DNA of 18,217 nucleotides, from the UHGV virus genome UHGV-0816550; one strand, given 5' to 3'. Below are positions 448 to 18,217 of the stretch, one piece after another (the stretch's first letter is position 1; each line of letters starts with the position of its first letter). The notes beneath the pieces were generated by a model, which worked only from the letters and a program-made list of their open reading frames with translations, was not told the DNA's origin and did no database searches. This stretch comes from a virus. The translations under genes were made by a program, and so were the position numbers.

Positions 448-3400
448 ATGATCGTTTATAATAGCCAAGCACCTGATGCAGTGAATGATGTTGGGCAGTT
501 TGGTGCTAAGGAAGGCTCTATCGGAGCTTACAAGCAAGCAGCAGAATATGCAGCTGACTCCAAATATTGGGCACTGCTAGCGGAGTCTAAGTTTGGTACA
601 ATTGATGACTTGATCACTGAAGTAGAACGTCTGTATCAACAAGGTGTTTTAATGAAGCAAGATATCGAAGATCTTAAACAGGACTTTAAAGATCAAGATG
701 CTCGTTTGATGACACTTATTGCTCAGACTAACGCAGCAGTGTCGGATGCTAATAATGCCGTTGCTTTAATCAATCAGAAACTTATTGAGGTTCAGAAACA
801 GCTTGATGTTCTGTTGGGAATGTCTGTTGACGTAACTACACTTCCTCCGGGAACTCCGGCTACTGGCTCTTTTAATCCGAACACTGGTGTAATCTCTTTA
901 GGTATTCCAGAAGGTGATCCCGGAAAGGATGGTTCTGTTAAAGATTTGGATACAGCACCTACTGGTGTTCCAGAGCTAGGTGATTTAGGTTTCTATGTTG
1001 ACAAAGATGACAATACTGTCCACAAGACTACTCTAGAGAATATTGCTAACTTAATTCCATCTGTTCGTTCTGTGTCTGTTAACGGTGGAACACCTGCTGA
1101 TGGAGAAGTTAATCTGGTCCTAGACAAAACTACTGTAGGTCTTAATAACGTAGTTAACGTAGCCTCTTATAGTATCTCTCAAGTTGACGGTAAAGTGGAT
1201 GGGTATGTTAAAACCTACAGAACCAAAGCTGCTGCGGATGCTGATGTAGTTAACCGAAAGGTTGGCGAAAACATCCTAGTTTGGGAGGATTATAAATACG
1301 TCTTCTACACTGTAGCTGCCGATAAAACACTAACTCTTTCTAAAACAGAAAATAGGATTGTTACGGTAAACTCTCGAGTTCCGGATTCTACTGGTAATAT
1401 TGATATTACGATACCTACCGGTAACCCGTCTTTGTATTTGGGTGAGATGTTAATGTTCCCTTATGACCCAGCCAAACAGGTGTCATATCCGGGTGTTCTT
1501 CCAGCTGATGGTCGTCTGGTGTCTAAAGATAACGCTGCTGATTTAGGCCCATCTCTTGTCAGTGGTCAACTTCCTGTTGTTTCTGAAACTGCGTGGCAAG
1601 CTGGAGCTAAACAGTATTTCTCTTGGGGCAAGTTAGCTGATGGGGTTACTGATGCGGATTCAACAAACTTTATCAATATTCGACTTCCCGATTGGACAGG
1701 TGGTGAGGCAATTAGATCTCCAAGTAAAACAAGTGACACTCAGTATGATGGAAGACCTCTTTCTCAGGTTCCTTATGTTGTTGCTGTTAACGGTAAGATC
1801 CCTAATGAAGCAACAGGTAATGTTACAGTCACAGCATCAGATGTAGGTGCCCTTCCTACTACTGGTGGTAAGATGACAGGCCATCTAAATCTCAGCTCTG
1901 GGATTGTGTTAACAGGTACCGCGAGTTCTGGAACATCCATTAATATCGCAACTGTTGCAACTGATGGTTCCGTTCTTCTCGGTAGTGATACAGTTAAAGC
2001 TAAAGTCCTATCTTCTGATGTCCCTGTTTATGCAAGCGCTTCGGGAGAGAAGAAGTTTTACACTGAGGCTAACAAACCAACTCCTGCTGAAATAGGGGCT
2101 GCTGCTATCACCTCTGCTGGGGTTAACGGGGATATCACTAAGCTTGAAGGTTTGGTTGGCCCTACTCGACTGGGTGGAGATGCTGTAGGTGATCTAGATG
2201 CTGTTACCTTACGTCAGTTAAGAAACCAAGGGGGTGGCGGTGGTGGGGCTAGCTTGAACGGTGTCTCTAATTTCAATATTGGTGATTTCCGTTTAGTAGA
2301 CAGTCGTGCTCTTATTCACTCTAATGACGTAACTTCTGACGGTCAATTATTATCTCGTACGGCATACCCAGATCTGTGGGCTTATGCTCAAGCGTTGTCT
2401 CCTATCACAGATGCTGCTTGGCTGGCTGACCCCCAACAAAGAGGTAAATACTCTTTAGGTGATGGTTCTACTACATTCCGTGTCCCTGACCGAAATGGTG
2501 TCCAAAGCGGCTCTATCACAGGGTTGTTTGGTAGGGGTGACTCTGGTAATTCTTCTAACAGTGGTTCAGTTTCTGATGCTTCTCTGCCAAACATCACAGC
2601 TAGCTTCTCTTCAGACTTAAACGGAAAAGCTTGGTTTCCTTTCACTACAGCTGACGGGTCTATGCTTGTCTCAACATCCGGTAGTGGAACTTTTATGCCA
2701 ACTGCTGGATATGAAACTGGGACCCAAGGAAATATACTTAGGTTCGATGCATCTAGACAATCCTCAGTTTATGGTCGATATAGTAACACCCAGAACGTAA
2801 TACCTAAAAGTTTTACTGGCGTTTGGGTAATCAGGGCTACTGGTGGATTCACTGCTGCTAATACAGAGTGGTCTGTTATTAACTCCGATGCAACCAAACC
2901 TTCTACTGGGTTTACAGTGTCTGGTGGTTTAGTCCGCTCTGAGTATAAAATAGGGACCGACCTAACTTACTCAGCAACCTTGTCTGCTTATGGGCAAATT
3001 GATGGAGCCTCCGGAACATCTGGAGCTAAAATCTTAAACGGGTCTCAGGAGTGGAAATTCAACAATGCTGGAACATTAGTTCTTCCTAATGCGGTATCTC
3101 AGCTTGGTACAGAAAGACCTGATGGAGCTATCAATGTTGATGCATACCTAAGACCTAAAGATTTGGTAGCCAACTCACTGAACTCTGTCGGTGTTGCGGC
3201 TTACGAGCGAAACGGTATGAGGATGATTAACTTCAATCAAACCACTCCTGGATATGTTTCTTACTTCTCTGGGGATTGGTATGATGGCAGTTACACTCTT
3301 GGTGGCGTTCGTGGTACTGGTACAGACCTGATTCATGCTCAGATTGCGGTAAACAACGGTCAAGGTGTAGCAGCTGATTTTAAGTTCATGCCGGACGGAA

Positions 3401-3762
3401 CTGCTCAAGCAGGGAACTGGTCAAGCACTTCAGACGAAAGACTTAAAACTAACATCAAGCGTATTGAGAATCCTATTGAAAAACTTAAGGCTATCAAAGG
3501 TGTTACTTGGGAACGTCTTGATAAACTTCCTAAACCTAATGGTATTGGCTTCCTTGCGCAAGATGTGGAGAAGGTTTTCCCTGACGCTGTTAAGGCTCTC
3601 CAGTATTCAGACACTGAATTGAAAGATGGAACTATTGTGAAAGATGTTAAGTCTGTAGACACCTATGGGGTAGCTGCTGCACTGCATCACGAAGTCCTAT
3701 TAGTTTTGTTAGATAGAATAGAAGCTCTTGAGAAAGAAGTAAATGAATTAAGGGCACGGTAA
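448..3762 (+). CDS. Tail fibre / tailspike protein 1 (1104 aa) with tail-collar module and C-terminal intramolecular chaperone domain
   Basis: ATG 448 preceded by AAGGAG (437-442). Predicted coiled-coil N-terminus; poly-Gly hinge (QGGGGGGAS); collar-like motif AYPDLWAYAQAL...GDGSTTFRVPDRNG at about 2362-2500; C-terminal S-DERLKTNIKRIENPIEKLKAIKGVTWERLD...LHHEV typical of peptidase S74 self-cleaving chaperone domains. Confidence 0.9.
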   Translation: MIVYNSQAPDAVNDVGQFGAKEGSIGAYKQAAEYAADSKYWALLAESKFGTIDDLITEVERLYQQGVLMKQDIEDLKQDFKDQDARLMTLIAQTNAAVSDANNAVALINQKLIEVQKQLDVLLGMSVDVTTLPPGTPATGSFNPNTGVISLGIPEGDPGKDGSVKDLDTAPTGVPELGDLGFYVDKDDNTVHKTTLENIANLIPSVRSVSVNGGTPADGEVNLVLDKTTVGLNNVVNVASYSISQVDGKVDGYVKTYRTKAAADADVVNRKVGENILVWEDYKYVFYTVAADKTLTLSKTENRIVTVNSRVPDSTGNIDITIPTGNPSLYLGEMLMFPYDPAKQVSYPGVLPADGRLVSKDNAADLGPSLVSGQLPVVSETAWQAGAKQYFSWGKLADGVTDADSTNFINIRLPDWTGGEAIRSPSKTSDTQYDGRPLSQVPYVVAVNGKIPNEATGNVTVTASDVGALPTTGGKMTGHLNLSSGIVLTGTASSGTSINIATVATDGSVLLGSDTVKAKVLSSDVPVYASASGEKKFYTEANKPTPAEIGAAAITSAGVNGDITKLEGLVGPTRLGGDAVGDLDAVTLRQLRNQGGGGGGASLNGVSNFNIGDFRLVDSRALIHSNDVTSDGQLLSRTAYPDLWAYAQALSPITDAAWLADPQQRGKYSLGDGSTTFRVPDRNGVQSGSITGLFGRGDSGNSSNSGSVSDASLPNITASFSSDLNGKAWFPFTTADGSMLVSTSGSGTFMPTAGYETGTQGNILRFDASRQSSVYGRYSNTQNVIPKSFTGVWVIRATGGFTAANTEWSVINSDATKPSTGFTVSGGLVRSEYKIGTDLTYSATLSAYGQIDGASGTSGAKILNGSQEWKFNNAGTLVLPNAVSQLGTERPDGAINVDAYLRPKDLVANSLNSVGVAAYERNGMRMINFNQTTPGYVSYFSGDWYDGSYTLGGVRGTGTDLIHAQIAVNNGQGVAADFKFMPDGTAQAGNWSSTSDERLKTNIKRIENPIEKLKAIKGVTWERLDKLPKPNGIGFLAQDVEKVFPDAVKALQYSDTELKDGTIVKDVKSVDTYGVAAALHHEVLLVLLDRIEALEKEVNELRAR
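3430..3759 (+). other. Intramolecular chaperone (peptidase S74-like) domain of fibre 1, with predicted autocleavage near the Ser-Asp at 3430-3435
   Basis: Motif SDERLKTNI...GVTWERL...GIGFLAQDVEKVFPDAV...LHHEVLLVLLDRIEALEKEVNELR matches the conserved endosialidase/tailspike C-terminal chaperone signature ending in a coiled coil. Confidence 0.7.
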
Positions 3763-3803: not shown

Positions 3804-5900
3804 ATGTCTAGAGATTTAATGCCCAAATCTGGCATACTTCAACCATATGTTGTTGTTTCCAGAGATGCAGCTGTTGTTGGCGTTTCCACTGTAGATGGTG
3901 TTGCTGGAGCTGTAAATTTAACTGATAAATACTTGCAGAAAACAGAAGCGGCTGATGTATATCAAACTAAAACAGAAGGTGCATCTAAAGATTATGTATT
4001 AGATTCAATTAAACCTATCATGGAAGGTGCTTTGTTCAAAGCAGACCCTTTTGTAGATAATAACATCCCTTTCCGTTCTGCTGGGGCTAATGGTGTAGAG
4101 TCTGTGGATATGATGAAAGTCACCACTGATAACTCAATTAAGATTGGTAGTTATGCTTCCTCAGTTCAAGGTGTAGAAATTCACTCTGCTGGTCGTCTTC
4201 AGGTTGTTGACCAGAATGACTCTGGGGTAGAAACTAAGTACCCTGTTTATTCTAAACGATACCGCCCTGAGATTGAAGATTTACCTTTCGCTGCAATCGG
4301 AACTTATGTTAAAGATTCAAAAGGTCGTACTGTTGGTGTTACCCGTACAGGTATTAACTCTGATATCAAACAGCTTACACAGAAGGTTACTTTCACTCAG
4401 CCAGTAACTGTTGCCGATGCAGTTGGTGACTATGATGCTGTCACACTAAGACAACTCCGTAATAGTAGTGGTGGTTCTGGTGGTCCTACAATGAGCGGTA
4501 TTTCTAACTTTGGTATTGGTGATTTCAGACTAGTAGACAGCCGTGCTTTTATCCAATCAAATGATGTTACCTCAGATGGTCAGCTGTTAAATCGTGCTGA
4601 TTACCCAGAGCTTTGGGCTTACGCACAACTATTGACCCCAATTAGTGATGCAGATTGGCTGGCTGACCCCCAACAAAGAGGTAAATACTCTTTAGGTGAT
4701 GGTTCTACTACTTTCCGCGTTCCTGATAGAAATGGCGTTCAAACCGGTTCTATCTCTGGTCTGTATGCTCGCGGTGACGGTGGTAACAGCTCCAACGACG
4801 GTACTGTTCAGCAGAACGCCGCGCCTGATATTACAGGCTCCGTTGGTGCGAACATATGGAGCGTATATGGAGATCCTACGGGGGCGATGTTTGCGGCTGA
4901 TCCAGCACTTAATATTCCGTTAGGCGCAGGAACCACACCAGCGCTTTCCGTCGGCTTTCGAGCGGGCCTATCAAACGCCGCTTATGGTCGCGACAACACG
5001 ACCGAAGTCCGCACCAACAGCTTCATAGGTGTCTGGGTTATTCGTGCTAATGGTGGCTTTACTGCTGCTAATACTTCTTGGTCTGTTATTAATGGCGACA
5101 GCGTTGCTCCGGGTACTGGAACAAAGATAGTAGGTGGTGAGATTCGTTCTGACTATAATATTGGAGACTCTATGCACATAAGATCCTCTATGCGTGCTGA
5201 TGGTAACTACGGTCAACGTGGAGGTGGTGTATGGAGAATTGAGGACTATCAAGGTAAAAGTGCAGAGATATCTTTCAACCTTGGTGGTGAGTTAGTGGTC
5301 CCAACATACACCAGAGGCGTGGGGTCGGGTTTCATTGCATCTTCTAAATTAGGGTCTGATGGTCAGTGGCCTACAACATCCCCGGCGTTTATTTGTGAGC
5401 TAACAGGCAGAGTGGGTAATCCCGGAACACCGGGTGCTGTTTTCTCCATGTCTATGGCGGAGAACGTGGGTGTTGATAGCTTTGGCATACTTAGATTCTC
5501 AGGAGCAGGGGTGAATGTGGACTGGCTGTTTAACCAGTTTGGTAGTGCCATAGCTCCTGCTAACTGGGTGAGTAATTCGGATATCCGAATTAAAAAGGAT
5601 ATTGCTAAGATAGAAGAACCTCTTGAGAAGATGAAGAAACTACATGGGTACACTTGGCGACGCTTAGACGGGGGCCAGTTTGGTATTGGGTTCATTGCTC
5701 AAGAAGTTCAGGATATCTATCCAGAGTTGGTCTATACAGGCCCAGACAGAACCCTCCCTGATGGAACAGTTGTCAAAGGTGTCCTATCTCCAGATTCTAC
5801 TGGTATTGCGATTGGTCTTCACCACGAAGCTATTCTGGCTTTGATGGAACAAATCGACACCCTTAAAGCAGAGATTGCTGAACTCAAATCTAACAAATGA
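3804..5900 (+). CDS. Tail fibre / tailspike protein 2 (698 aa), paralogue of fibre 1 with collar module and C-terminal intramolecular chaperone domain
   Basis: ATG 3804 with AAGGAG at 3792-3797. Collar-like motif ADYPELWAYAQLL...GDGSTTFRVPDRNG at about 4596-4737, roughly 80% aa-identical to fibre 1 over this module; C-terminal SDIRIKKDIAKIEEPLEKMKKLHGYTWRRLD...LHHEAILALMEQIDTLKAEIAELK. Confidence 0.9.
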   Translation: MSRDLMPKSGILQPYVVVSRDAAVVGVSTVDGVAGAVNLTDKYLQKTEAADVYQTKTEGASKDYVLDSIKPIMEGALFKADPFVDNNIPFRSAGANGVESVDMMKVTTDNSIKIGSYASSVQGVEIHSAGRLQVVDQNDSGVETKYPVYSKRYRPEIEDLPFAAIGTYVKDSKGRTVGVTRTGINSDIKQLTQKVTFTQPVTVADAVGDYDAVTLRQLRNSSGGSGGPTMSGISNFGIGDFRLVDSRAFIQSNDVTSDGQLLNRADYPELWAYAQLLTPISDADWLADPQQRGKYSLGDGSTTFRVPDRNGVQTGSISGLYARGDGGNSSNDGTVQQNAAPDITGSVGANIWSVYGDPTGAMFAADPALNIPLGAGTTPALSVGFRAGLSNAAYGRDNTTEVRTNSFIGVWVIRANGGFTAANTSWSVINGDSVAPGTGTKIVGGEIRSDYNIGDSMHIRSSMRADGNYGQRGGGVWRIEDYQGKSAEISFNLGGELVVPTYTRGVGSGFIASSKLGSDGQWPTTSPAFICELTGRVGNPGTPGAVFSMSMAENVGVDSFGILRFSGAGVNVDWLFNQFGSAIAPANWVSNSDIRIKKDIAKIEEPLEKMKKLHGYTWRRLDGGQFGIGFIAQEVQDIYPELVYTGPDRTLPDGTVVKGVLSPDSTGIAIGLHHEAILALMEQIDTLKAEIAELKSNK
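5577..5897 (+). other. Intramolecular chaperone (peptidase S74-like) domain of fibre 2
   Basis: NSDIRIKKDI...HGYTWRRL...GIGFIAQEVQDIYPELV...GLHHEAIL plus terminal coiled coil; homologous to the fibre 1 C-terminus but divergent (I estimate about 40% identity by eye). Confidence 0.7.
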
Positions 5901-5992: not shown

Positions 5993-6211
5993 ATGAAAAT
6001 GATGAAACAGGCTGCATATGGTTTAATCTGTTTAGTTGCAGGCGTTGTGGTATCAACCGCAGTTCCTGTAAGCGCAGTTCATCCATTAGTAACTGTCCCT
6101 GCTCCAGTAGAGAAGCTTAGCTCTCAATGCAAGCAGAGAACAATTCAAAATAACTTAGTTGTTATTTGCCCCGATGCTGAATCTAACGCTCTGAGAAAGA
6201 TACTACCTTAA
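5993..6211 (+). CDS. Small membrane protein (72 aa), putative holin or lysis accessory protein
   Basis: ATG 5993 with AGGAG at 5980-5984. One N-terminal hydrophobic segment (AAYGLICLVAGVVVSTAV), a proline-rich stretch and a charged C-terminal tail; sits immediately upstream of a lysozyme that has no signal or anchor sequence. Confidence 0.5.
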   Translation: MKMMKQAAYGLICLVAGVVVSTAVPVSAVHPLVTVPAPVEKLSSQCKQRTIQNNLVVICPDAESNALRKILP

Positions 6212-6240
6212 TTTAAAGGGACTACAAAAGGAGGTTAGGA

Positions 6241-6732
6241 ATGGATAACGCCGCATTGCCACCTGTACAACTAAACTTAAGCCCAGCTGGAATGGAATTC
6301 ATCATGAAGCATGAGGGTATGAGAACCAAGGCTTATAAAGATTCCGCAGGTATATGGACTATATGTGTAGGGGCTACGCGCGATATGAATGGTTATCCGG
6401 TTAGACAAGGATTAACGTATTCTATAGAGGATTGTCTAGCTCTGCTAGATAGAGACACACAAGACTCTGTTCGTGCTACTCAAAAGAACATAAAGGTTCC
6501 TTTACTAGTTCATGAGTTTGATGCACTCACTTCTTTCAACTTCAATGTTGGCAGTGGTGCTTTGAGCACATCTAAGTTAAGGAAGGTTATCAATGGAGAA
6601 GTTAAAGGGGATGTATATTCCGAATTTCTTCGTTGGGATAAAATAACGGTCAAGGGAGAGAAGCAGAGAAGTCAGGGTCTTCATAATAGAAGGGTTGCAG
6701 AAGCTGATCTTTACACCGAAGGTAAATATTAA
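6241..6732 (+). CDS. Endolysin, T4-type lysozyme (glycoside hydrolase family 24)
   Basis: ATG 6241 with AAAGGAGG at 6226-6233. HEG-MRTKAYKD-SAGIWTICVG reproduces the T4 lysozyme catalytic spacing Glu-(9)-Asp-(6)-Thr (T4 E11/D20/T26; here E25/D34/T40). No N-terminal hydrophobic segment, so it would be holin-dependent. Confidence 0.9.
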   Translation: MDNAALPPVQLNLSPAGMEFIMKHEGMRTKAYKDSAGIWTICVGATRDMNGYPVRQGLTYSIEDCLALLDRDTQDSVRATQKNIKVPLLVHEFDALTSFNFNVGSGALSTSKLRKVINGEVKGDVYSEFLRWDKITVKGEKQRSQGLHNRRVAEADLYTEGKY

Positions 6733-11588: not shown

Positions 11589-12620
11589 ATGGCATATGGA
11601 ATATGGACACAACCAGTAGGGCCGGGGCCAGCAACCCCCGCTCCCTTATTTATTGATAGCGGAAGTACTTTCCCTCAGTTCAAGAATAGTATAAGAGGGA
11701 GTTTTAACTTTAATGGAGCTGGGAGATCTTTCCCTATTAGTGGATGGGATGGCAGTGGTCAGATAGTTATTGTTCCCACCGGTTCTTTATGCTGGCAATG
11801 GGAAGTCCCTCCTAACCTAGTTCCTGATGTTTATTGTGTGAATAATATCTACGTAGAAAACAGTTCCTCTTTTAGAGTTACTCTGAATCAGAACCCCGGC
11901 AGTAACCCCTTATTTGACTGTGGGTTCAACGTATATCAAATATGGCCTAGAGCGGATAGGAATTACGGAATTACCTTTTCTAATACAGCAGACTACTTCT
12001 CGATATCTGATAGTGGGGTCGTCGGTCAATGTATTTGGGCTTGGCAGGGGACCATAAACAATGCCCTTCAGATACCAAATATCGGTGGGTTCAATATGAC
12101 CAATGCTGTTGTGTTTGCTAATTGGTCTGATGGAGGGATAGGACTATCTTATACTTCTGATGACAGGGTTATTCGTGTTTATCAGAACAGACCTTACATA
12201 AACGGCAACACTAATGAGGGTGGTTCTGTGTTTGCTAGAATTGCAGTATTCTGCAATGGAGCAGGAGTTCCGGAACATAACGGAGGTTTGAATATTTACT
12301 CTCCGGGTACCACGCAATGTGTCTTCTCTACTAATAGAACACCTTTCACTGTGGATACTTTTATAGGCTCAGGAGGTGGTAACACTGGAATGTCATACCC
12401 TATGATACCTCTTACCTCTGGAATAGGTGCGATAAAAGGCCAAGGCAGTGGATGGAGGTATCAGCAAATGAGATCTCACACAATGAGTGGTTCTAGCATA
12501 GGAACTGGTTATGGAAGATATCTATTTCAATGGGATCAAAATTACGACCTAGGAGCTGATACTGTAGTTAATTTATCAGTTCCTGTAATAAATGCAGCTA
12601 AGGTTTTTGCTGGACTATAA
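11589..12620 (+). CDS. Hypothetical virion protein (343 aa), Gly/Asn/Trp-rich
   Basis: ATG 11589 lies 1 nt after the TAA of the previous gene (TAATATG), suggesting translational coupling. Long ORF with composition like neighbouring structural genes; no family motif recognised. Confidence 0.7.
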   Translation: MAYGIWTQPVGPGPATPAPLFIDSGSTFPQFKNSIRGSFNFNGAGRSFPISGWDGSGQIVIVPTGSLCWQWEVPPNLVPDVYCVNNIYVENSSSFRVTLNQNPGSNPLFDCGFNVYQIWPRADRNYGITFSNTADYFSISDSGVVGQCIWAWQGTINNALQIPNIGGFNMTNAVVFANWSDGGIGLSYTSDDRVIRVYQNRPYINGNTNEGGSVFARIAVFCNGAGVPEHNGGLNIYSPGTTQCVFSTNRTPFTVDTFIGSGGGNTGMSYPMIPLTSGIGAIKGQGSGWRYQQMRSHTMSGSSIGTGYGRYLFQWDQNYDLGADTVVNLSVPVINAAKVFAGL

Positions 12621-12632
12621 CAAGGAGATATT

Positions 12633-13415
12633 ATGGCAATTAAAATGGGTATTGAAGAACTAGACCCAATGGTTCAACAGGCTTCAAAGAAGTATGGGAT
12701 TCCTGCTGCTTTGATTCATGCTGTAATCCAAAGAGAGTCTAGTGGTCGTCCTACGGTAGCCTCTGGAACTGGTCCTGTAGGTTTAATGCAGATCAGTAAA
12801 GGGTTGGCTAAAGACTACGGTTACAAACTAGAAGACAGACTTGACCCAGCAAAGAATATTGATATGGGTGCTCGTTATATTAGAGATAACTTAAAGGCTT
12901 TTAATGGTGATGTTAAGAAAGCAATGGTTGGTTATTCAGAAGGTATAGGTGGAGCTAAGCAAATGTTTGCCGGTAAAAAGGGATTTACACCTCAAGCCCT
13001 TGACTCAATGAACAACAAACACTTTCTTCCTTTCTATGATGATGCAGCTTCTCAGATTGCTAACCCTATTGGAGCTTTGCAAGCTGTTCAACCAGTCAAT
13101 CAGTTTAGTCCGGATACTCTTGATAGGGAGAAGGCTGCTCAAGCCCCAACTCAGGCAGAAATTACTGCTTCTAAGACTGGTGCTTTAGGTGGCAATCCAG
13201 TAGAGTTTTACTCTGATGAAGTGCAGGAAGGAGAAAACCAGAAGCCTCAACAGAACTTTGGTAATGCAGTATTAGGGGTAGCTGCTATGCTTGCCGGTAA
13301 ACCTCCTACTTCTCAAACAGTTCAGAGGGCAAGTGCACCACATGCAGCAGGTTCTCAGTACAGTCCACAAACACAAGCAGTGCTCAGACGTTTAGCTAGC
13401 ATTGGTGTAAAGTAA
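12633..13415 (+). CDS. Virion-associated lytic transglycosylase (SLT-domain) protein, 260 aa
   Basis: ATG 12633 with AAGGAG at 12623-12627. N-terminal signature AVIQRESSGRPTVASGTGPVGLMQIS, with the candidate catalytic Glu35 at codon 12735-12737; placed beside putative ejection proteins, as with peptidoglycan-cutting internal virion proteins. Confidence 0.8.
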   Translation: MAIKMGIEELDPMVQQASKKYGIPAALIHAVIQRESSGRPTVASGTGPVGLMQISKGLAKDYGYKLEDRLDPAKNIDMGARYIRDNLKAFNGDVKKAMVGYSEGIGGAKQMFAGKKGFTPQALDSMNNKHFLPFYDDAASQIANPIGALQAVQPVNQFSPDTLDREKAAQAPTQAEITASKTGALGGNPVEFYSDEVQEGENQKPQQNFGNAVLGVAAMLAGKPPTSQTVQRASAPHAAGSQYSPQTQAVLRRLASIGVK

Positions 13416-13434: not shown

Positions 13435-14487
13435 ATGTCTTTATTTGGAAAATCAGCTTCTAGCAAAACCACAGTGGCCCCTTCCTCTCAGGTTGATGCC
13501 CTGCTGAAGCAGATTGTTGCTAATGCTCAGAATATGCAGAACAACGATCCGGGATTCATCTCCCAACAGCTGGCTGGGTTTAATGGCAACCAACAAGGTG
13601 CTCTGAACAACTTAGCAGCTTCTACTACTCAGAAGCAATTGGCTGATATGTACACGCCTCGTACACAGCAAGGGTTGGACCAATTAAACTCTCTTGCACA
13701 GCAGTATCAGAATATTGTCAATGGTGGTGGTCTAACTGCTGATGGTGTTAATAACTTCAGTAAAGGATTGAATAACTCAGCTCTTGCTCAAGCGACTAGT
13801 AAGGCAGCTTCCAATGTATCCCTCGGAAATGGTTCTGACTCTGGTTCTCTTCGTAGGGCTGCGGCTCAAGGGGCTGCTTTGAACAGTGCTAATACAAACT
13901 TAGCCCGTACTATCAGTGGCAAGAATATGGGAATCAGTGCTCTCCAACAAGACCAAAACTTTCAGAGGGGTTTACTTGGTGCTCAGTCAGGATTGGCTGG
14001 ACAGAATCTCAACCTTGGTGCTCAAGGTGTTCAGGCAACTCAACAAGCTATCCAGAATCAACTCATGGCTGGTAATCTACAACAGCAACAAGCCCAAGCT
14101 CAAGCTGATATTAATTGGCAGAACGCTATTGGCTCTCAACAGTATGGGTGGAATCAGCTTAACAATCAGCTTAATGTATTAAACAGTGTAAGTCCAATGG
14201 CTGGGTACACGATTAAGAATGCTGCTCCGGGAGTCAATACTGGACAACAGCTCCTAGGTGCTGGTATCACTGGTTTAGGTATTGCAGGTCGTATGGGTGC
14301 TTTCTCTCCTAACCAACAGACTCAGAATGCTTGGAGTTCCTATAACAACTCAGGTGGGCAATCTGGAATGGCTGGACCTATGATTGGAGGTTCTAATCTT
14401 TCTCAACAGAGAGGTCAGTCTAACTGGTTATCCACAGCAGGTAGTAATATCTTAGGTGGTGTCTTAGGGGCATTTGGAGTAAACTAA
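13435..14487 (+). CDS. Q/N/G-rich low-complexity virion protein (350 aa) with C-terminal glycine-zipper segment; putative ejection/internal protein
   Basis: ATG 13435 with AAGGAGG at 13425-13431. Strongly biased composition (poly-Q, N, G, A, S) and a C-terminal small-residue hydrophobic segment (GSNILGGVLGAFGV). Confidence 0.75.
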   Translation: MSLFGKSASSKTTVAPSSQVDALLKQIVANAQNMQNNDPGFISQQLAGFNGNQQGALNNLAASTTQKQLADMYTPRTQQGLDQLNSLAQQYQNIVNGGGLTADGVNNFSKGLNNSALAQATSKAASNVSLGNGSDSGSLRRAAAQGAALNSANTNLARTISGKNMGISALQQDQNFQRGLLGAQSGLAGQNLNLGAQGVQATQQAIQNQLMAGNLQQQQAQAQADINWQNAIGSQQYGWNQLNNQLNVLNSVSPMAGYTIKNAAPGVNTGQQLLGAGITGLGIAGRMGAFSPNQQTQNAWSSYNNSGGQSGMAGPMIGGSNLSQQRGQSNWLSTAGSNILGGVLGAFGVN

Positions 14488-14499
14488 AGGAGATTTGAT

Positions 14500-15469
14500 A
14501 TGGGACTTTTCGGAGGAGGGGGTAGTAAAACTACTTCCCAAATGATTCGCCCTGAATATATTCAACAGTATATTGACCAGCTTAACCAGCAGATTGGTAA
14601 TACTAGTTCTAGGGGATTATGTCTATCGTGACAACGTAGGATTTAATAACAACCAGACAGAAGCCCTTAATAATTTGGCTCAATCCGGTGCTTTAGGGAC
14701 TCTCTCGCAGCAATATATGGATGCAGCAGGTCAAGGGTTGGGTTATCTGGATAATGCCTATAAAGGCTACCAGAGCCTCTCTGGACAAGGTGGGATTACT
14801 GGAGAACAGATTGGTGCTCTCGCTGGTCAACTGTATGACGATGATGCTGTGCAAGCAGCCATTACCGCTAATAATGAACAGGTTCAACAGAACTTGGCAC
14901 GTAATGCTCTTCCTCAATTAGCTCAACAGTTTGCTGGTCAGCAAGGTTCAGGTGCTCGTATGGCTAAATCTTTTGCCCAAGGTGATGCTCTGAATCAGAT
15001 GCAAGGCCAAGCAACAGATATTACCAACAGTGCCTATAACTCGGCTATTAGCCAAGCTGAAAGCATCCTCTCTGGTAATAGACAGAATCAAGCAGCTGCT
15101 CTCTCAGGTCTTTCTAATATTGGTTCTAACCTTTCTAACCTAGGTCAGCAGGGTGCTAATTTGTCTCAACAGCAAATAATGAATCAATGGAATGCAGGAT
15201 TGCAGCAACAACAGCAACAACAGAATGAATATGATAATGCCTACCAGAATGCTCAGAACGCAGCTAATTGGGGATGGCAAGATATCAATAACCAACTCGG
15301 TGCAGCAGGTGTACTTAACGGTGCTCTCGGACAAACTACAACTACTAAAACATCTGGAGGTAGGGGTGGCTTCTTAGGAGGGGGTATGAGTGGTGCAGCA
15401 GCAGGCTCTTCCTTTGGACCTTGGGGTGCATTAGCTGGGGGTGTAATCGGTGGGTTGGCTAGTACTTAA
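14500..15469 (+). CDS. Q/N/G-rich paralogue of the preceding protein, interrupted by an apparent +1 frame change near the G4 run at 14612-14615 (sequencing indel, pseudogene or recoding)
   Basis: ATG 14500 with AAGGAG at 14487-14492 opens a frame that stops at TGA 14629-14631 after 43 codons. The long downstream frame (open from 14546 to 15469) has no ATG start with a ribosome-binding site. Both parts align to the upstream paralogue (MSLFGKSASSKTT vs MGLFGGGGSKTT; GFNGNQQGALNNL vs GFNNNQTEALNNL) only if one base is removed. Confidence 0.6.
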
Positions 15470-15482
15470 TTAGGAGACAAAT

Positions 15483-16274
15483 ATGCAACAGACAACTTAC
15501 GCTCAGGTCAGAAGTCGTGACCCGAGAAATACTTTCTATGGTGTTAATCCGGGAGCGGCTTCGGCCTCTCCTTATATGGCTAGACCAACTCAGACAGCAG
15601 ATATTTCTATGTATCAACGTCCTGCTATACCTGCTGGGCTTTCCTCTCTTGTAGGTCAAACTTCAGTAGATTATCAGAATATGTTGAATCCTGTTCAGAG
15701 TAATGGTCTTCCTTCTGATATCCCAAATGATGTACAACCTCAAGCACAACAGGCTGTAACTCTTCCTGAGTTTGAGAATCAAGAAACCATGCAAGCTGCT
15801 GGACTTTCTCCTTCTTCTATTCCTCCAGAATCAGAACCTCTTCCGGTAACACCTCCTACTAAACCGTTAGAAGCTGGTCCTATGGAGTTTACTCCTTCTC
15901 AGGTGGAACAGGCACAAGGTGTGATTAATACTCTTGCTCAAGGACAAGACGCTGGTGATGGAATGACTGCTGCTACTCGTGCTAAAGATCAGGAACGTGT
16001 TAACAACGATATCTTGCAAGTTGCTAAAGCTAAAAATCCTTCAGAAGCTTGGAATAAACTACAGAAAGAACCTTTCTATCAGAACTCCAGTTTCTATACA
16101 GGTTTAATGGGTGTAGGTCTTTCTATCATGTCAGGTAAGTCTCCTATTGAAGCTTTCCAGATTGGTCAGGGAATGGCTAATCAAGATGAGACTAAGAAGC
16201 AACTGGAAGCTAACCGTGATGCTCTGATTGAACAAGGCTTCTCCCAAGACTCGATCGCAGCTGCTATTGCTTAA
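15483..16274 (+). CDS. Hypothetical virion/ejection-associated protein (263 aa) with Pro-rich linker and C-terminal hydrophobic segment
   Basis: ATG 15483 with AGGAG at 15473-15477. Pro/Ser-rich linker (SPSSIPPESEPLPVTPPTKPLEAGP) and hydrophobic FYTGLMGVGLSIMSG near the C-terminus; no family motif recognised. Confidence 0.65.
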   Translation: MQQTTYAQVRSRDPRNTFYGVNPGAASASPYMARPTQTADISMYQRPAIPAGLSSLVGQTSVDYQNMLNPVQSNGLPSDIPNDVQPQAQQAVTLPEFENQETMQAAGLSPSSIPPESEPLPVTPPTKPLEAGPMEFTPSQVEQAQGVINTLAQGQDAGDGMTAATRAKDQERVNNDILQVAKAKNPSEAWNKLQKEPFYQNSSFYTGLMGVGLSIMSGKSPIEAFQIGQGMANQDETKKQLEANRDALIEQGFSQDSIAAAIA

Positions 16275-17967
16275 CACGTTGAGAGCGAGCACGCTGAGAA
16301 GAGAAGCGATTCAGAGCATACTTAGCAGCACCGAGAGTGTTCATTACCAGACTAGGTGAAGAAGCCTCACGGAATCCATCATCAGTCAGGGAAGTCCAAC
16401 CACGATCTTGGTTACTCATAAACTTAGCCGTATTGTTCAGAGTGTAAGCATCTTGGATAGGATTAAAACCTTCAGGCATGCCTTTCAGTTTCTTCAACCC
16501 ACCGATAGCTTTCTTCATCTCTGGAGAAACGTTATCAGCCATCTTCTGTAGTTCAGCAGCTTTCTCTACGAAGTTGTTAAAGTCTTCACCATCACGAGCT
16601 TTGAATCGATTTGCTTCGTTATAGAAAGTCTTGTACGCATCAATGAAATCACGGTCAGCTTGTGTGCGATTCTTAATATCAATCGGACTGCCAGTAAAGT
16701 CACCAGAAGCTCGGAGAGAAACTAACTCACGATCAAGATTATCCAGAACATCTGTAAGAGCTTTAGTGTTATCCTTGGTGTAGTCAGCCATTGCATCTTT
16801 CATAGCGACAGCTTGCTTCTGGTTGTGCTCATTATCAGCGAAGGCTTTACCACGAGTCTTAGCCGGAGAAGCTAAAGGGTTAAGGCCCGGAATGTTGGAA
16901 TGTTCTTTCTGAACAGAAGCAGCTTTCTCAGCACGAGCTTGGTCAGTATTAAGAATACGCTGAGCAGCAGGAGAATCTACAGCAACAGCATCTGTGATAC
17001 GGAATCCGTTCTCGTCGAGAAGGTTCAGAGCAGAAGCAGCGTTAGCAGTTTCAGCTTTAGAGTAAGCCTCTTTCAGCTCATCAATATTCTTAGCACCACG
17101 AATCAGTTCATCATCAGCAGCAATATCAGTCTTCGCATATTCTGGAGTGTTCTTGAAGACAGCAGAATCCGGACGGCTAATCAAACCATGAACTCCACCA
17201 ACTGCACCACCAAATGCAGCACCCATAGCCCCTTCTTCAATAACCCCTTCCAATGTCTTAGCTAAATCATTGTCATCACCATACTTGTTCTGAACTTCAG
17301 CAGCACCAACAAGAGCACCACCTTTAGCACCAGCCACTGCGTTACTAGCAACGTTCTGACCAATACGACCAAGTGTGGACTCAGCTGTACCAACAGCACC
17401 CGGAAGGATTCTCTGAGCTGCATAGTTAGCACCACCAACTAAGGCTGCATCTAGAACAGACTTATCTTCTCCCTCTTCAGGGGTTTGGTCTGCATACGCA
17501 CGACCGGTCTCACGACCTGCGATGATAGCAGCGGCAGCTAATGGGTTAGCAACTGTCAGACCAATGTCGGCAACCACCCCAGCATACTGACCAGCAGACT
17601 TACCAATCCCATCCTCAATCTTATCCATACGTTCTTTCAAGAGGTTTTGAGCGTTCTCTTGCATACGCTTCCCGTAACCAGTTTGTGCTCCAGTTAGATC
17701 TTCACCAATCTCAACTAAGCCCCCAATACCTCTAGCAAGATTAGCAGAGATGTTAGCACTGCCGGACTGAAGAGCATTTGACACACCTTGAGCAAACTCA
17801 CCTATAGCACCACGTTCTTCTTGTTGTGGTTGTGCTACTGGCTGTTCCTCAGGAATAGAGCCACCTGCTGCCTTATATTGTTCTCTCATTCGAGCTTGTT
17901 GCTCCGGAGAGGCATTCAGATACGCAGGAGCTTTGGAAGCTTCTTCCCACGGTTTAATGTTAGCCAT
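16264..17967 (-). CDS. Hypothetical Gly/Ala-rich protein (567 aa), function unknown
   Basis: Minus-strand ATG at 17965-17967 preceded by AAGGAG; product begins MANIKPWEEAS. The ORF-track start at 18012 has no ribosome-binding site. Stop TAG at 16264-16266 overlaps the 3' end of the + strand gene ending at 16274. Confidence 0.75.
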   Translation of the reverse strand: MANIKPWEEASKAPAYLNASPEQQARMREQYKAAGGSIPEEQPVAQPQQEERGAIGEFAQGVSNALQSGSANISANLARGIGGLVEIGEDLTGAQTGYGKRMQENAQNLLKERMDKIEDGIGKSAGQYAGVVADIGLTVANPLAAAAIIAGRETGRAYADQTPEEGEDKSVLDAALVGGANYAAQRILPGAVGTAESTLGRIGQNVASNAVAGAKGGALVGAAEVQNKYGDDNDLAKTLEGVIEEGAMGAAFGGAVGGVHGLISRPDSAVFKNTPEYAKTDIAADDELIRGAKNIDELKEAYSKAETANAASALNLLDENGFRITDAVAVDSPAAQRILNTDQARAEKAASVQKEHSNIPGLNPLASPAKTRGKAFADNEHNQKQAVAMKDAMADYTKDNTKALTDVLDNLDRELVSLRASGDFTGSPIDIKNRTQADRDFIDAYKTFYNEANRFKARDGEDFNNFVEKAAELQKMADNVSPEMKKAIGGLKKLKGMPEGFNPIQDAYTLNNTAKFMSNQDRGWTSLTDDGFREASSPSLVMNTLGAAKYALNRFSSQRARSQRVKQ

Positions 17968-18035
17968 AACGTCTCCTTTTATAAATAAAAATGTCCTACC
18001 CCCTATATACATTATAGAAGGCAGGACTTAGGTCT

Positions 18036-18217
18036 TATTGAGTGAACCAGCTCGTATCTTCAACAGCTGATAGAGCACCATTAAGCTTAGGATTGGTTGC
18101 TGCACCACCAACCGCTTCTTCTGCTTGTTCAGAGAAAACACCTAGAGGGTCATAGAAACCACCAGAAGGGATTGCACGGTTAACCAATGCAGTAGCCCTC
18201 TTCTTGTCCATACCAGA
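18036..18217 (-). CDS. Small minus-strand ORF, possibly the C-terminus of a gene that starts beyond the window end
   Basis: Frame open from the window edge to TAA (complement of 18036-18038); internal ATG at 18209-18211 would give a 57-aa product MDKKRATALVNRAIPSGGFYDPLGVF...; codon usage like neighbours. Start not determinable. Confidence 0.35.

What the first reader, a model, noticed from the sequence alone, without database searches (positions are those of the whole stretch)
12633..13415. Virion-type lytic transglycosylase as a separate small gene
The SLT signature (RESSGRP...GLMQIS) sits at the N-terminus of a 260-aa protein that is distinct from the lysozyme endolysin upstream. Two different peptidoglycan enzymes imply separate roles in entry (transglycosylase) and exit (lysozyme). 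The C-terminal 130 residues are low-complexity and uncharacterised.
Basis: partly seen in the sequence, partly recalled or inferred. Interest (0 to 1): 0.45.

Follow-up and report, generated by a model that had tools for sequence, protein, structure and literature searches.

The report
Known Kuravirus ejection-protein lytic transglycosylase

Summary
The ORF at 12633-13415 (+) is real. It is 260 aa, has an AAGGAG ribosome-binding site, matches Pfam SLT at E = 1.2e-23, and codon 12735-12737 is GAG = Glu35. The window is the structural module of a Kuravirus (phiEco32/SU10-like E. coli podophage). The gene is 94-96% identical in DNA to phiEco32 gp22 and SU10 gp20, which are annotated "transglycosylase" or "internal virion protein".

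gp20 was found in virions by mass spectrometry. gp20-24 are present in virions but absent from genome-release intermediates, which marks them as ejection proteins. A separate GH24 lysozyme sits next to a holin at 5993-6732 and is the endolysin.

Glu35 aligns with the catalytic Glu37 of T7 gp16. The motifs ES, GLMQ and GYxxG are invariant in 26 homologues down to 40% identity.

The C-terminal 130 aa are not low-complexity in the strict sense. They are A/Q/P/G-rich, predicted mostly disordered, and carry four conserved islands. They occur only fused to this SLT domain in this phage lineage. Their role is unknown; I infer docking to the ejection channel.

Verdict: observation confirmed, interpretation supported, already known, low interest.

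The parts
12622..12627 (+). Shine-Dalgarno AAGGAG, 5 nt upstream of the ATG
   Evidence: Read directly from the sequence.
12633..13415 (+). CDS of 260 aa plus stop. Orthologue of phiEco32 gp22 (phi32_22) and SU10 gp20 (SU10_020): virion-internal ejection protein with an N-terminal lytic transglycosylase domain.
   Evidence: ORF list. Megablast gives 94-96% identity over 100% of the gene to 75 Kuravirus records. phrog_12507 matches end to end at 584 bits. Annotations are shown.
12669..12980 (+). SLT (family 1 lytic transglycosylase, GH23) catalytic domain, aa 13-116 by Pfam. The predicted folded domain spans about aa 7-135.
   Evidence: PF01464 at E = 1.2e-23. hhalign to T7-like gp16 N-termini gives probability 99.7%, aa 8-129 against 10-142. 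AF2 block-mean pLDDT is 83-91 for aa 71-130 and 88-89 for aa 11-30. All top Foldseek PDB hits are lytic transglycosylases.
12735..12737 (+). GAG codon for the predicted catalytic Glu35 (E-S motif)
   Evidence: Glu35 aligns with T7 gp16 Glu37, named as the catalytic residue in PMC8954989. E35 and S36 are invariant in 26 homologues.
12780..12791 (+). GLMQ motif (aa 50-53), SLT motif II
   Evidence: Invariant in 26 homologues.
12930..12944 (+). GYSEG (aa 100-104), counterpart of the AYNxG motif III of SLT enzymes
   Evidence: G100, Y101 and G104 are invariant. The motif aligns with AYNQG of T7 gp16.
13023..13412 (+). C-terminal half (aa 131-260). It is lineage-specific, A/Q/P/G-rich and mostly predicted disordered. 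Conserved islands lie at about aa 141-150 (ANPxGAL), 168-176 (A..APTQAE), 209-221 (WGNAALAAxSMLA) and 241-256 (SPQTQxVLRxL). Inferred role: docking or tethering segment.
   Evidence: The region matches no family other than its own. A profile of this half finds only 10 cluster representatives among 1.84 billion proteins. Seven are 260-300 aa with the module behind an N-terminal SLT domain, two are short fragments and one is a repetitive sequence.
13435..14487 (+). Neighbouring ejection protein gene (phiEco32 gp23 / SU10 gp21 homologue)
   Evidence: phrog_4287 'DNA ejection protein' at E = 1.8e-117. SU10 gp21 is lost on genome release.
14500..15469 (+). Neighbouring ejection protein gene (phiEco32 gp24 / SU10 gp22 homologue). 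In this window it is interrupted by a 1-nt insertion near 14610.
   Evidence: phrog_4287 at E = 6.5e-97. Alignment with phiEco32 and SU10 shows the insertion.
6241..6732 (+). The separate GH24 phage lysozyme (endolysin; phiEco32 gp17 homologue). It is context for the entry/exit argument, not part of the ejection module.
   Evidence: PF00959 at E = 4.3e-32. phrog_7 endolysin. It sits next to the holin homologue at 5993-6211.

Best explanation
The gene encodes the small ejection (internal virion) protein of a Kuravirus, the orthologue of SU10 gp20 and phiEco32 gp22. It is made late, has no export signal, and is packaged in the head with four other ejection proteins. These are the products of the next four genes, homologues of gp21-24 in SU10 numbering. 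Published SU10 work shows that once the tail nozzle has formed and the tail needle has left, these proteins leave the head through the tail. I infer the remaining steps. In the periplasm the N-terminal SLT domain cuts the MurNAc-GlcNAc bond by the non-hydrolytic transglycosylase mechanism, with Glu35 as the acid/base catalyst. This opens a local hole in the murein so that the other ejection proteins can build a channel to the inner membrane. The disordered C-terminal half, with its conserved islands, most likely keeps the enzyme attached to that channel or directs its packaging. That would make it functionally comparable to the 'molecular tape' following the transglycosylase domain of T7 gp16, although it is not homologous to it. 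Cell lysis at the end of infection is done by the separate holin plus GH24 lysozyme pair. By analogy with T7 gp16, the enzyme may matter mainly when the murein is heavily cross-linked.
For: Identity: 94-96% DNA identity over the full length to 75 Kuravirus records. The protein is 98.5% identical to that of phage ev_rybdy3, and phrog_12507 matches end to end. Enzyme: Pfam SLT at E = 1.2e-23. PDB sequence hits include T7 gp16 (7eyb/7k5c) and the bacterial enzymes MltC, MltE and Slt70. hhalign probability to T7-like gp16-N is 99.7%. Foldseek top hits are all lytic transglycosylases. E35-S36, G50-L51-M52-Q53 and G100-Y101..G104 are invariant in 26 homologues down to 40% identity. Virion location and release, from the literature on the orthologue: MS detection in virions (PMC4281155); gp20-24 present in virions and absent from genome-release intermediates on SDS-PAGE and MS (PMC9509320). 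Genomic context: the block tail needle, [DUF6453], SLT, then four large genes without Pfam matches is conserved in metagenomic relatives at 43-47% identity. No signal peptide or TM segment: the best 19-aa Kyte-Doolittle mean is 0.83. Separate endolysin: PF00959 lysozyme beside the holin homologue. C-half: conserved islands in a faster-evolving, low-pLDDT region. It is always fused to SLT in proteins of 260-300 aa. The T7 precedent for function under highly cross-linked peptidoglycan is described in PMC8954989.
Against: No enzymatic assay of any Kuravirus gp20/gp22 was found in the searchable literature; the SU10 paper infers activity from homology. Virion presence is shown for SU10, not for the phage in this window. 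The tethering role of the C-terminal half is inference only. Profile-profile comparison with T7 gp16 aligns only the SLT domain, and the C-half alone matches no other family. The SU10 cryo-EM maps did not resolve the ejection proteins, so stoichiometry and position are unknown. The window itself looks like draft-quality sequence: it has a frameshift in the gp24 homologue and an inverted junction at about 16270. The SLT gene itself is intact.
Confidence: 0.87

Rival explanations
1. It is a second lysis enzyme, an auxiliary endolysin acting from within at the end of infection, and not an entry enzyme.
For: SLT-type enzymes serve as endolysins in some phages; phiKZ gp144 is among the fold hits. 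Some GenBank records label this gene 'mltC'.
Against: The gene is 5.9 kb from the holin and lies inside the ejection-protein block. A dedicated GH24 lysozyme sits beside the holin. The orthologue is a virion component that leaves the particle on genome release. There is no signal-anchor or SAR sequence.
Confidence: 0.04
2. The SLT domain is retained as a peptidoglycan-binding or structural module, and the protein is a purely architectural ejection-channel component without catalytic function.
For: Activity has never been measured for this family. [quoted passage not shown]
Against: The catalytic Glu-Ser pair and the GLMQ and GYxxG motifs are invariant across 26 homologues, while the rest of the protein diverges to 40% identity. 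That pattern is expected under selection for catalysis.
Confidence: 0.06
3. The gene is organised like PRD1 gene VII/XIV. A nested in-frame start would make a separate C-terminal product (P14-like) that acts in DNA translocation, alongside the full-length transglycosylase.
For: PRD1-type P7 has the same layout: 269 aa with N-terminal SLT, 31% identity over 188 aa, E = 1e-16, and a nested P14 CDS starting at codon 116. In the window an in-frame ATG at codon 111 is preceded by GGTGGAG with 8-nt spacing.
Against: The SD-like sequence is lost by a synonymous change in phiEco32 (GGCGGTG). Codon 111 is Ile in the distant clade. The GGAG arises from invariant Gly-Ala codons of the catalytic motif. 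The passages of the SU10 papers that I read mention no 15-16 kDa gp20-derived band.
Confidence: 0.03

Closest known systems
Escherichia phage SU10 gp20 (AIF71773) and phiEco32 gp22 (YP_001671767), genus Kuravirus
   Same: Same length (260 aa), 94-96% DNA identity, same position between the DUF6453 gene and the ejection-protein genes, and the same annotation as transglycosylase or internal virion protein. SU10 gp20 is shown to be a virion protein released on genome ejection.
   Different: Only a few amino-acid substitutions. The surrounding window differs in its tail-fibre genes and carries a frameshift and an inverted junction downstream.
T7 gp16 N-terminal domain (internal virion protein D; PDB 7K5C, 7EYB)
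   Same: Both are SLT-type transglycosylase domains at the extreme N-terminus of a head-packaged ejection protein. The catalytic Glu is aligned (E35 with E37), identity is about 34%, and hhalign probability is 99.7%. In both, the domain is followed by an extended non-globular segment.
   Different: T7 gp16 is 1318 aa and also forms the inner-membrane and cytoplasmic part of the ejectosome. Here the enzyme is a separate 260-aa protein and the large ejection proteins are separate genes. The C-terminal half is not detectably homologous to the gp16 'molecular tape' at residues 157-228.
PRD1 P7 (Tectiviridae virion transglycosylase)
   Same: Similar size (269 aa against 260), N-terminal SLT domain, 31% identity over 188 aa at E = 1e-16. 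It is a virion-borne entry enzyme distinct from the phage's lysis enzyme (PMC5380687).
   Different: PRD1 P7 is associated with an internal viral membrane and has a nested gene (P14). The Kuravirus protein has no conserved nested start and comes from a tailed phage without a membrane.
Bacterial family 1 lytic transglycosylases (MltE/EmtA, MltC, Slt70)
   Same: Same catalytic fold and motifs.
   Different: The bacterial enzymes carry signal peptides or lipoboxes and accessory domains. The phage protein has none and scores far below the NCBIfam equivalog cut-offs, for example 37 bits against 375 for MltC. The 'mltC' label in some phage records is therefore a mis-transfer.

Membership tests
SLT / family 1 lytic transglycosylase domain (Pfam PF01464, GH23) | Profile match above the curated gathering score | tested here: met
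   83.3 bits against a cut-off of 21.3, E = 1.2e-23, aa 13-116 covering profile positions 2-109 of 117.
SLT / family 1 lytic transglycosylase domain (Pfam PF01464, GH23) | Catalytic Glu in an E-S motif at the end of the second helix | tested here: met
   E35-S36 (codon 12735-12737 = GAG). Invariant in 26 homologues. Aligned with T7 gp16 E37.
SLT / family 1 lytic transglycosylase domain (Pfam PF01464, GH23) | Conserved substrate-binding motifs GLMQ and AYNxG-like | tested here: met
   G50-L51-M52-Q53 invariant; G100-Y101-S-E-G104 with G, Y and G invariant.
SLT / family 1 lytic transglycosylase domain (Pfam PF01464, GH23) | All-alpha goose-lysozyme-like fold | tested here: met
   The AF2 model is helical with block-mean pLDDT 83-91 over aa 71-130. 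All top Foldseek PDB hits are lytic transglycosylases with probability 1.00. E-values are only about 3e-3 and TM 0.3-0.45, because half of the model is disordered.
SLT / family 1 lytic transglycosylase domain (Pfam PF01464, GH23) | Produces 1,6-anhydro-MurNAc products (non-hydrolytic cleavage) | not testable with these tools
   Needs a biochemical assay. No published assay for Kuravirus gp20/gp22 was found.
Podophage ejection (internal virion) proteins carrying a lysin domain (T7 gp16 type virion-associated lysin) | Protein is a component of the mature virion | not testable with these tools
   Literature on the 96%-identical orthologue: SU10 gp20 detected by MS in virions in two studies (PMC4281155; PMC9509320 Supplementary Table 1).
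Podophage ejection (internal virion) proteins carrying a lysin domain (T7 gp16 type virion-associated lysin) | Leaves the particle on genome release | not testable with these tools
   Literature: gp20-24 are absent from SU10 genome-release intermediates (PMC9509320).
Podophage ejection (internal virion) proteins carrying a lysin domain (T7 gp16 type virion-associated lysin) | Gene lies in a conserved block with the other ejection-protein genes, downstream of the tail genes and apart from the lysis cassette | tested here: met
   Same order in phiEco32 and SU10 and in metagenomic relatives at 43-47% identity. The holin-lysozyme pair is 5.9 kb upstream.
Podophage ejection (internal virion) proteins carrying a lysin domain (T7 gp16 type virion-associated lysin) | No Sec signal or membrane anchor (reaches the periplasm through the tail) | tested here: met
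   The N-terminus MAIKMGIEELDP is polar. The best 19-aa hydropathy mean is 0.83, at aa 212-230.
T7 gp16 family proper (full-length homology) | Homology beyond the SLT domain (molecular tape 157-228 and the large C-terminal domain) | tested here: not met
   hhalign aligns only aa 8-129 with 10-142. The C-half alone matches no T7-like PHROG. The protein is 260 aa against 1318 aa.
PRD1 P7/P14 arrangement | Nested in-frame gene giving a separate C-terminal product | tested here: not met
   The ATG111 plus GGTGGAG seen in the window is not conserved in phiEco32 or in distant homologues.
Endolysin of a holin-endolysin lysis cassette | Adjacent to a holin, or carrying a SAR or signal sequence | tested here: not met
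   The holin homologue at 5993-6211 is followed by the GH24 lysozyme at 6241-6732, not by this gene. No hydrophobic N-terminus.

The most novel reading that the evidence does not exclude
Kuraviruses and their metagenomic relatives have a 'split gp16'. The transglycosylase is a free-standing 260-aa ejection protein whose lineage-specific, disordered C-terminal half carries four conserved islands: ANPxGAL, APTQAE, WGNAALAAxSMLA and SPQTQxVLRxL. On this reading that half is a non-homologous functional equivalent of the T7 gp16 molecular tape. It would fold on binding to the periplasmic channel built by gp21-24 and so anchor the enzyme at the site of murein penetration, or alternatively act as the capsid-packaging signal.
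Probability: 0.3. Interest if true: 0.3.

Novelty: already known. Interest (0 to 1): 0.1.

Why it matters
It matters little beyond correct annotation. The gene is a textbook-type virion-associated lysin, already annotated in dozens of Kuravirus genomes and placed among the ejection proteins by SU10 proteomics and cryo-EM work. Two questions remain open. The first is a direct demonstration of transglycosylase activity and of the conditions under which it is needed. The second is the role of the conserved but disordered C-terminal half, which could show how a small enzyme is packaged in the head and positioned in a trans-periplasmic channel.

Tried and rejected
1. Homology of the C-terminal half to the T7 gp16 'molecular tape'. 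The full-length protein's PHROG match to phrog_342 runs to residue 212. Profile-profile comparison, however, aligns only the SLT domain, and the C-half alone does not hit phrog_342. Homology is rejected and only a positional analogy remains.

2. A PRD1 P7/P14-like nested gene starting at Met111. Rejected because neither the SD-like sequence nor the Met is conserved.

3. A membrane anchor at 'NAVLGVAAMLAG'. Hydropathy is far too low for a TM helix, at 0.83.

4. Formal low complexity of the C-half. Not met.

5. Occurrence of the C-terminal module in other architectures. An exhaustive profile search of 1.84 billion representatives found only 10 hits. All full-length true hits were SLT-fused proteins of 260-300 aa, and P0058 is a repetitive false hit.

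6. NCBIfam equivalogs MltC, MltE and MltF. All score far below their cut-offs, so the 'mltC' labels in some phage records are not justified.

7. The phiEco32 proteomics paper (Savalia 2008, PMC2587145) could not be read. Virion evidence therefore rests on the two SU10 papers.

Full report
**1. Observation**

The + strand carries an ATG-initiated ORF at 12633-13415 that encodes 260 aa. AAGGAG lies at 12622-12627, 5 nt upstream of the ATG. The preceding gene ends at 12620.

The translation contains RESSGRP (aa 34-40) and GLMQIS (aa 50-55).

Pfam SLT (PF01464) matches aa 13-116 at E = 1.2e-23, 83.3 bits against a gathering score of 21.3. The feature is therefore real and not a chance ORF.

A different peptidoglycan enzyme lies upstream at 6241-6732. 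It is a GH24 phage lysozyme (PF00959, E = 4.3e-32; phrog_7 endolysin). It follows directly the counterpart of the phiEco32 holin gene at window 5993-6211.

**2. What the window is**

Megablast places the window in the genus Kuravirus (Gordonclarkvirinae; phiEco32/SU10-like E. coli podophages with prolate heads).

- The SLT gene is 94-96% identical over 100% of its length to 75 phage records.
- The protein is 98.5% identical to that of phage ev_rybdy3.
- phrog_12507 ('transglycosylase', 260 positions) matches end to end at 584 bits.
- In phiEco32 the orthologue is gp22 (phi32_22, 'transglycosylase'; 'internal virion protein' in the original GenBank entry). In SU10 it is gp20 (SU10_020, 'internal virion protein').

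Gene order in the window matches the references: two tail fibres, holin, lysozyme, short tail fibre (Gp10_C), nozzle protein (Big_2), tail needle (Phage_Tail_Tip), DUF6453 protein, SLT protein, two phrog_4287 'DNA ejection proteins', then two large proteins.

**3. What is already known about the orthologue**

- Mirzaei et al. 2014 (PMC4281155) detected SU10 gp20 in phage preparations by mass spectrometry, with 39.6% coverage and 9 peptides at 27.5 kDa.
- Siborova et al. 2022 (PMC9509320) showed by SDS-PAGE and MS that gp20-24 are present in virions and absent from genome-release intermediates. They concluded that these are ejection proteins.
- The activity itself was inferred from homology: their Supplementary Table 1 lists the structures 4CFP, 4P0G (printed '4POG' there), 5O29 and 5A5X as similar. 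I found no assay.
- The ejection proteins were not resolved in the cryo-EM maps.

The criterion 'no muralytic activity' is still untested.

**4. My own tests of the enzyme assignment**

- PDB sequence search hits T7 gp16 (7EYB/7K5C; E = 3.5e-9, query aa 9-154), a phage tape-measure SLT domain, and the bacterial MltC, MltE and Slt70.
- In the ungapped part of the gp16 alignment, Glu35 pairs with gp16 Glu37. PMC8954989 identifies Glu37 as the catalytic glutamate of the gp16 transglycosylase fold.
- A profile of 26 homologues against a profile of four T7-like gp16 N-termini gives hhalign probability 99.7% over aa 8-129 against 10-142.
- Among 26 homologues reaching down to 40% identity, E35, S36, G50-L51-M52-Q53, G100, Y101 and G104 are invariant. 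This is as expected for an active enzyme.
- An AlphaFold2 model is confident for the helical N-terminal domain, with block-mean pLDDT 83-91 over aa 71-130 and 88-89 over aa 11-30.
- All top Foldseek PDB matches are lytic transglycosylases, including MltE, MltC, Slt, T7 gp16 and phiKZ gp144. Probability is 1.00, but E-values are modest because half of the model is disordered.
- The protein has no signal peptide and no TM segment; the maximum 19-aa hydropathy mean is 0.83. This fits delivery to the periplasm through the tail and not by secretion.
- It scores far below the NCBIfam equivalog cut-offs for MltC, MltE and MltF. The 'mltC' label in a few phage records is therefore a name transfer and not an orthology.

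**5. Context in distant relatives**

Metagenomic homologues at 43-47% identity lie on phage-sized contigs of about 88-108 kb. They keep the same block: Gp10_C protein, large nozzle-like protein, Phage_Tail_Tip needle, (DUF6453), SLT protein of 262-267 aa, then four genes of about 335-364, 324-326, 572-577 and 1350-1470 aa.

One lineage lacks both DUF6453 and the adjacent lysozyme but keeps the SLT gene fused to the ejection block. This ties the SLT gene to ejection and not to lysis.

**6. The C-terminal half (aa 131-260; nt 13023-13412)**

Formally it is not low-complexity. No 12-residue window falls below 2.2 bits, and overall entropy is 3.87 bits against 3.98 for the N-half.

It is rich in A, Q, P, G and S and is mostly predicted disordered. 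pLDDT is below 50 for residues 179-241, and short helices are predicted at 137-152, 160-181, 215-219 and 245-256.

It evolves faster than the enzyme domain: 27-36% identity against 51-61% in the distant homologues. It nevertheless keeps islands around aa 141-150 (ANPxGAL), 168-176 (A..APTQAE), 209-221 (WGNAALAAxSMLA) and 241-256 (SPQTQxVLRxL).

It matches no Pfam or NCBIfam family, and in PHROGs only its own family.

A profile of this half, searched exhaustively against 1.84 billion representative proteins, found ten hits:

- Seven are proteins of 260-300 aa with the module at the same position behind an N-terminal SLT domain.
- Two are short fragments.
- One (P0058) is a repetitive false positive.

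The module is therefore lineage-restricted and always coupled to this enzyme.

**7. Mechanism**

Shown, for SU10: the protein is in the head and leaves it together with gp21-24 on genome release.

Shown here: it has an intact SLT catalytic apparatus under purifying selection, no export signal, and conserved linkage to the ejection genes.

Inferred: after nozzle formation and needle release, the protein passes through the tail and cleaves glycan strands locally by the Glu35-dependent non-hydrolytic mechanism, letting the other ejection proteins complete a channel.

Inferred: the C-terminal half tethers it to that channel or serves in packaging. In T7, the gp16 transglycosylase domain (1-156) is followed by an extended 'molecular tape' (157-228) that cements gp15 (PMC8954989). 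The Kuravirus protein has the same layout in a free-standing 260-aa protein. I could not show homology of the two tails, so this is analogy only.

By analogy with T7, the activity may be required only when peptidoglycan is highly cross-linked (PMC8954989, citing Moak and Molineux 2000 and 2004).

**8. Rivals**

- A second endolysin. This is contradicted by location, virion data and the dedicated holin-lysozyme pair.
- A catalytically silent structural protein. This is contradicted by the invariant catalytic motifs.
- A PRD1 VII/XIV-like nested gene. PRD1-type P7 is 31% identical over 188 aa (E = 1e-16) and has a nested P14 CDS. The window does have ATG111 preceded by GGTGGAG. However, phiEco32 has GGCGGTG there and the distant clade has Ile at that codon, so I reject this.

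**9. Novelty and score**

What is not known is a direct activity measurement, the conditions of requirement, and the role of the C-terminal half.

Interest is low (0.1). The most novel reading still open is the 'split gp16' with a non-homologous tether, which I rate at about 0.3 probability and modest interest.

**10. Things seen in passing**

- The gp24 homologue (ejection protein) carries a 1-nt insertion near 14610 that breaks the frame.
- Collinearity with all reference genomes stops at about 16271-16275. The remaining 1.9 kb is the reverse complement of the gp25-end/gp26-start region, which truncates the gp25 homologue at 263 of 551 aa and puts the gp26 N-terminus on the minus strand.
- Together these suggest draft or mis-assembled sequence.
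- The two long tail-fibre genes are the most divergent part of the window, at 66-84% identity or unmatched. They share an internal module of about 120 aa with each other.

Noticed in passing
window 14500-15469 (insertion near 14610): The homologue of the ejection protein phiEco32 gp24 / SU10 gp22 starts at ATG 14500. It carries one extra T (AGTTCTAGGGG against AGTTC-AGGGG in phiEco32 and SU10), which creates a TAG and a frameshift. The rest of the gene continues as ORF 14573-15469. This is either a sequencing error or a pseudogene of an otherwise essential virion protein.
   Followed up: partly
window 16267-18217 (junction at about 16267-16275): Collinearity with all Kuravirus genomes ends here. 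The last 1.95 kb is the reverse complement of the gp25-3'end/gp26-5' region (phiEco32 locus L001 19273 back to 17323). The gp25 homologue is therefore cut at 263 of 551 aa, and the gp26 N-terminal 567 aa are encoded on the minus strand (16264-18012). There is a 5-nt overlap at the junction. It looks like an inversion or an assembly chimera.
   Followed up: partly
window 448-3762 and 3804-5900: The two long tail-fibre genes are the least conserved part of the window: 66-84% identity to phiEco32, with about 1790-3759 largely unmatched. They share an internal module of about 120 aa with each other (…DAVTLRQLRN…GDFRLVDSRA…QQRGKYSLGDGSTTFRVPDRNGVQ…). Both end in a similar C-terminal segment (…IKRIENPIEKLK…GVTWERLD… and …IAKIEEPLEKMK…GYTWRRLD…), which looks like an intramolecular-chaperone type domain. 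This is probably a host-range cassette exchange.
   Followed up: no
window 5993-6732: The lysis genes (72-aa holin homologue and GH24 lysozyme) are embedded in the middle of the tail gene cluster, between the long fibres and the short-fibre/nozzle genes, as in phiEco32 and SU10. One distant relative (L010) lacks a lysozyme at this position.
   Followed up: partly
window 11589-12620: The DUF6453 protein (343 aa; phrog_1265 'membrane protein') lies between the tail needle and the SLT gene. In SU10 the orthologue gp19 is listed as not detected in virions (PMC9509320 Supplementary Table 1). It is missing in the distant relative L010/L011. Its function is unknown.
   Followed up: no
window 13435-14487 and 14500-15469: The two ejection proteins downstream of the SLT gene both match the same family (phrog_4287), so they are paralogues. 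They have the lowest sequence entropy in the window (3.63-3.64 bits; Q/N/G/A-rich). These, and not the SLT protein's C-half, are the truly low-complexity-like proteins of the module.
   Followed up: no
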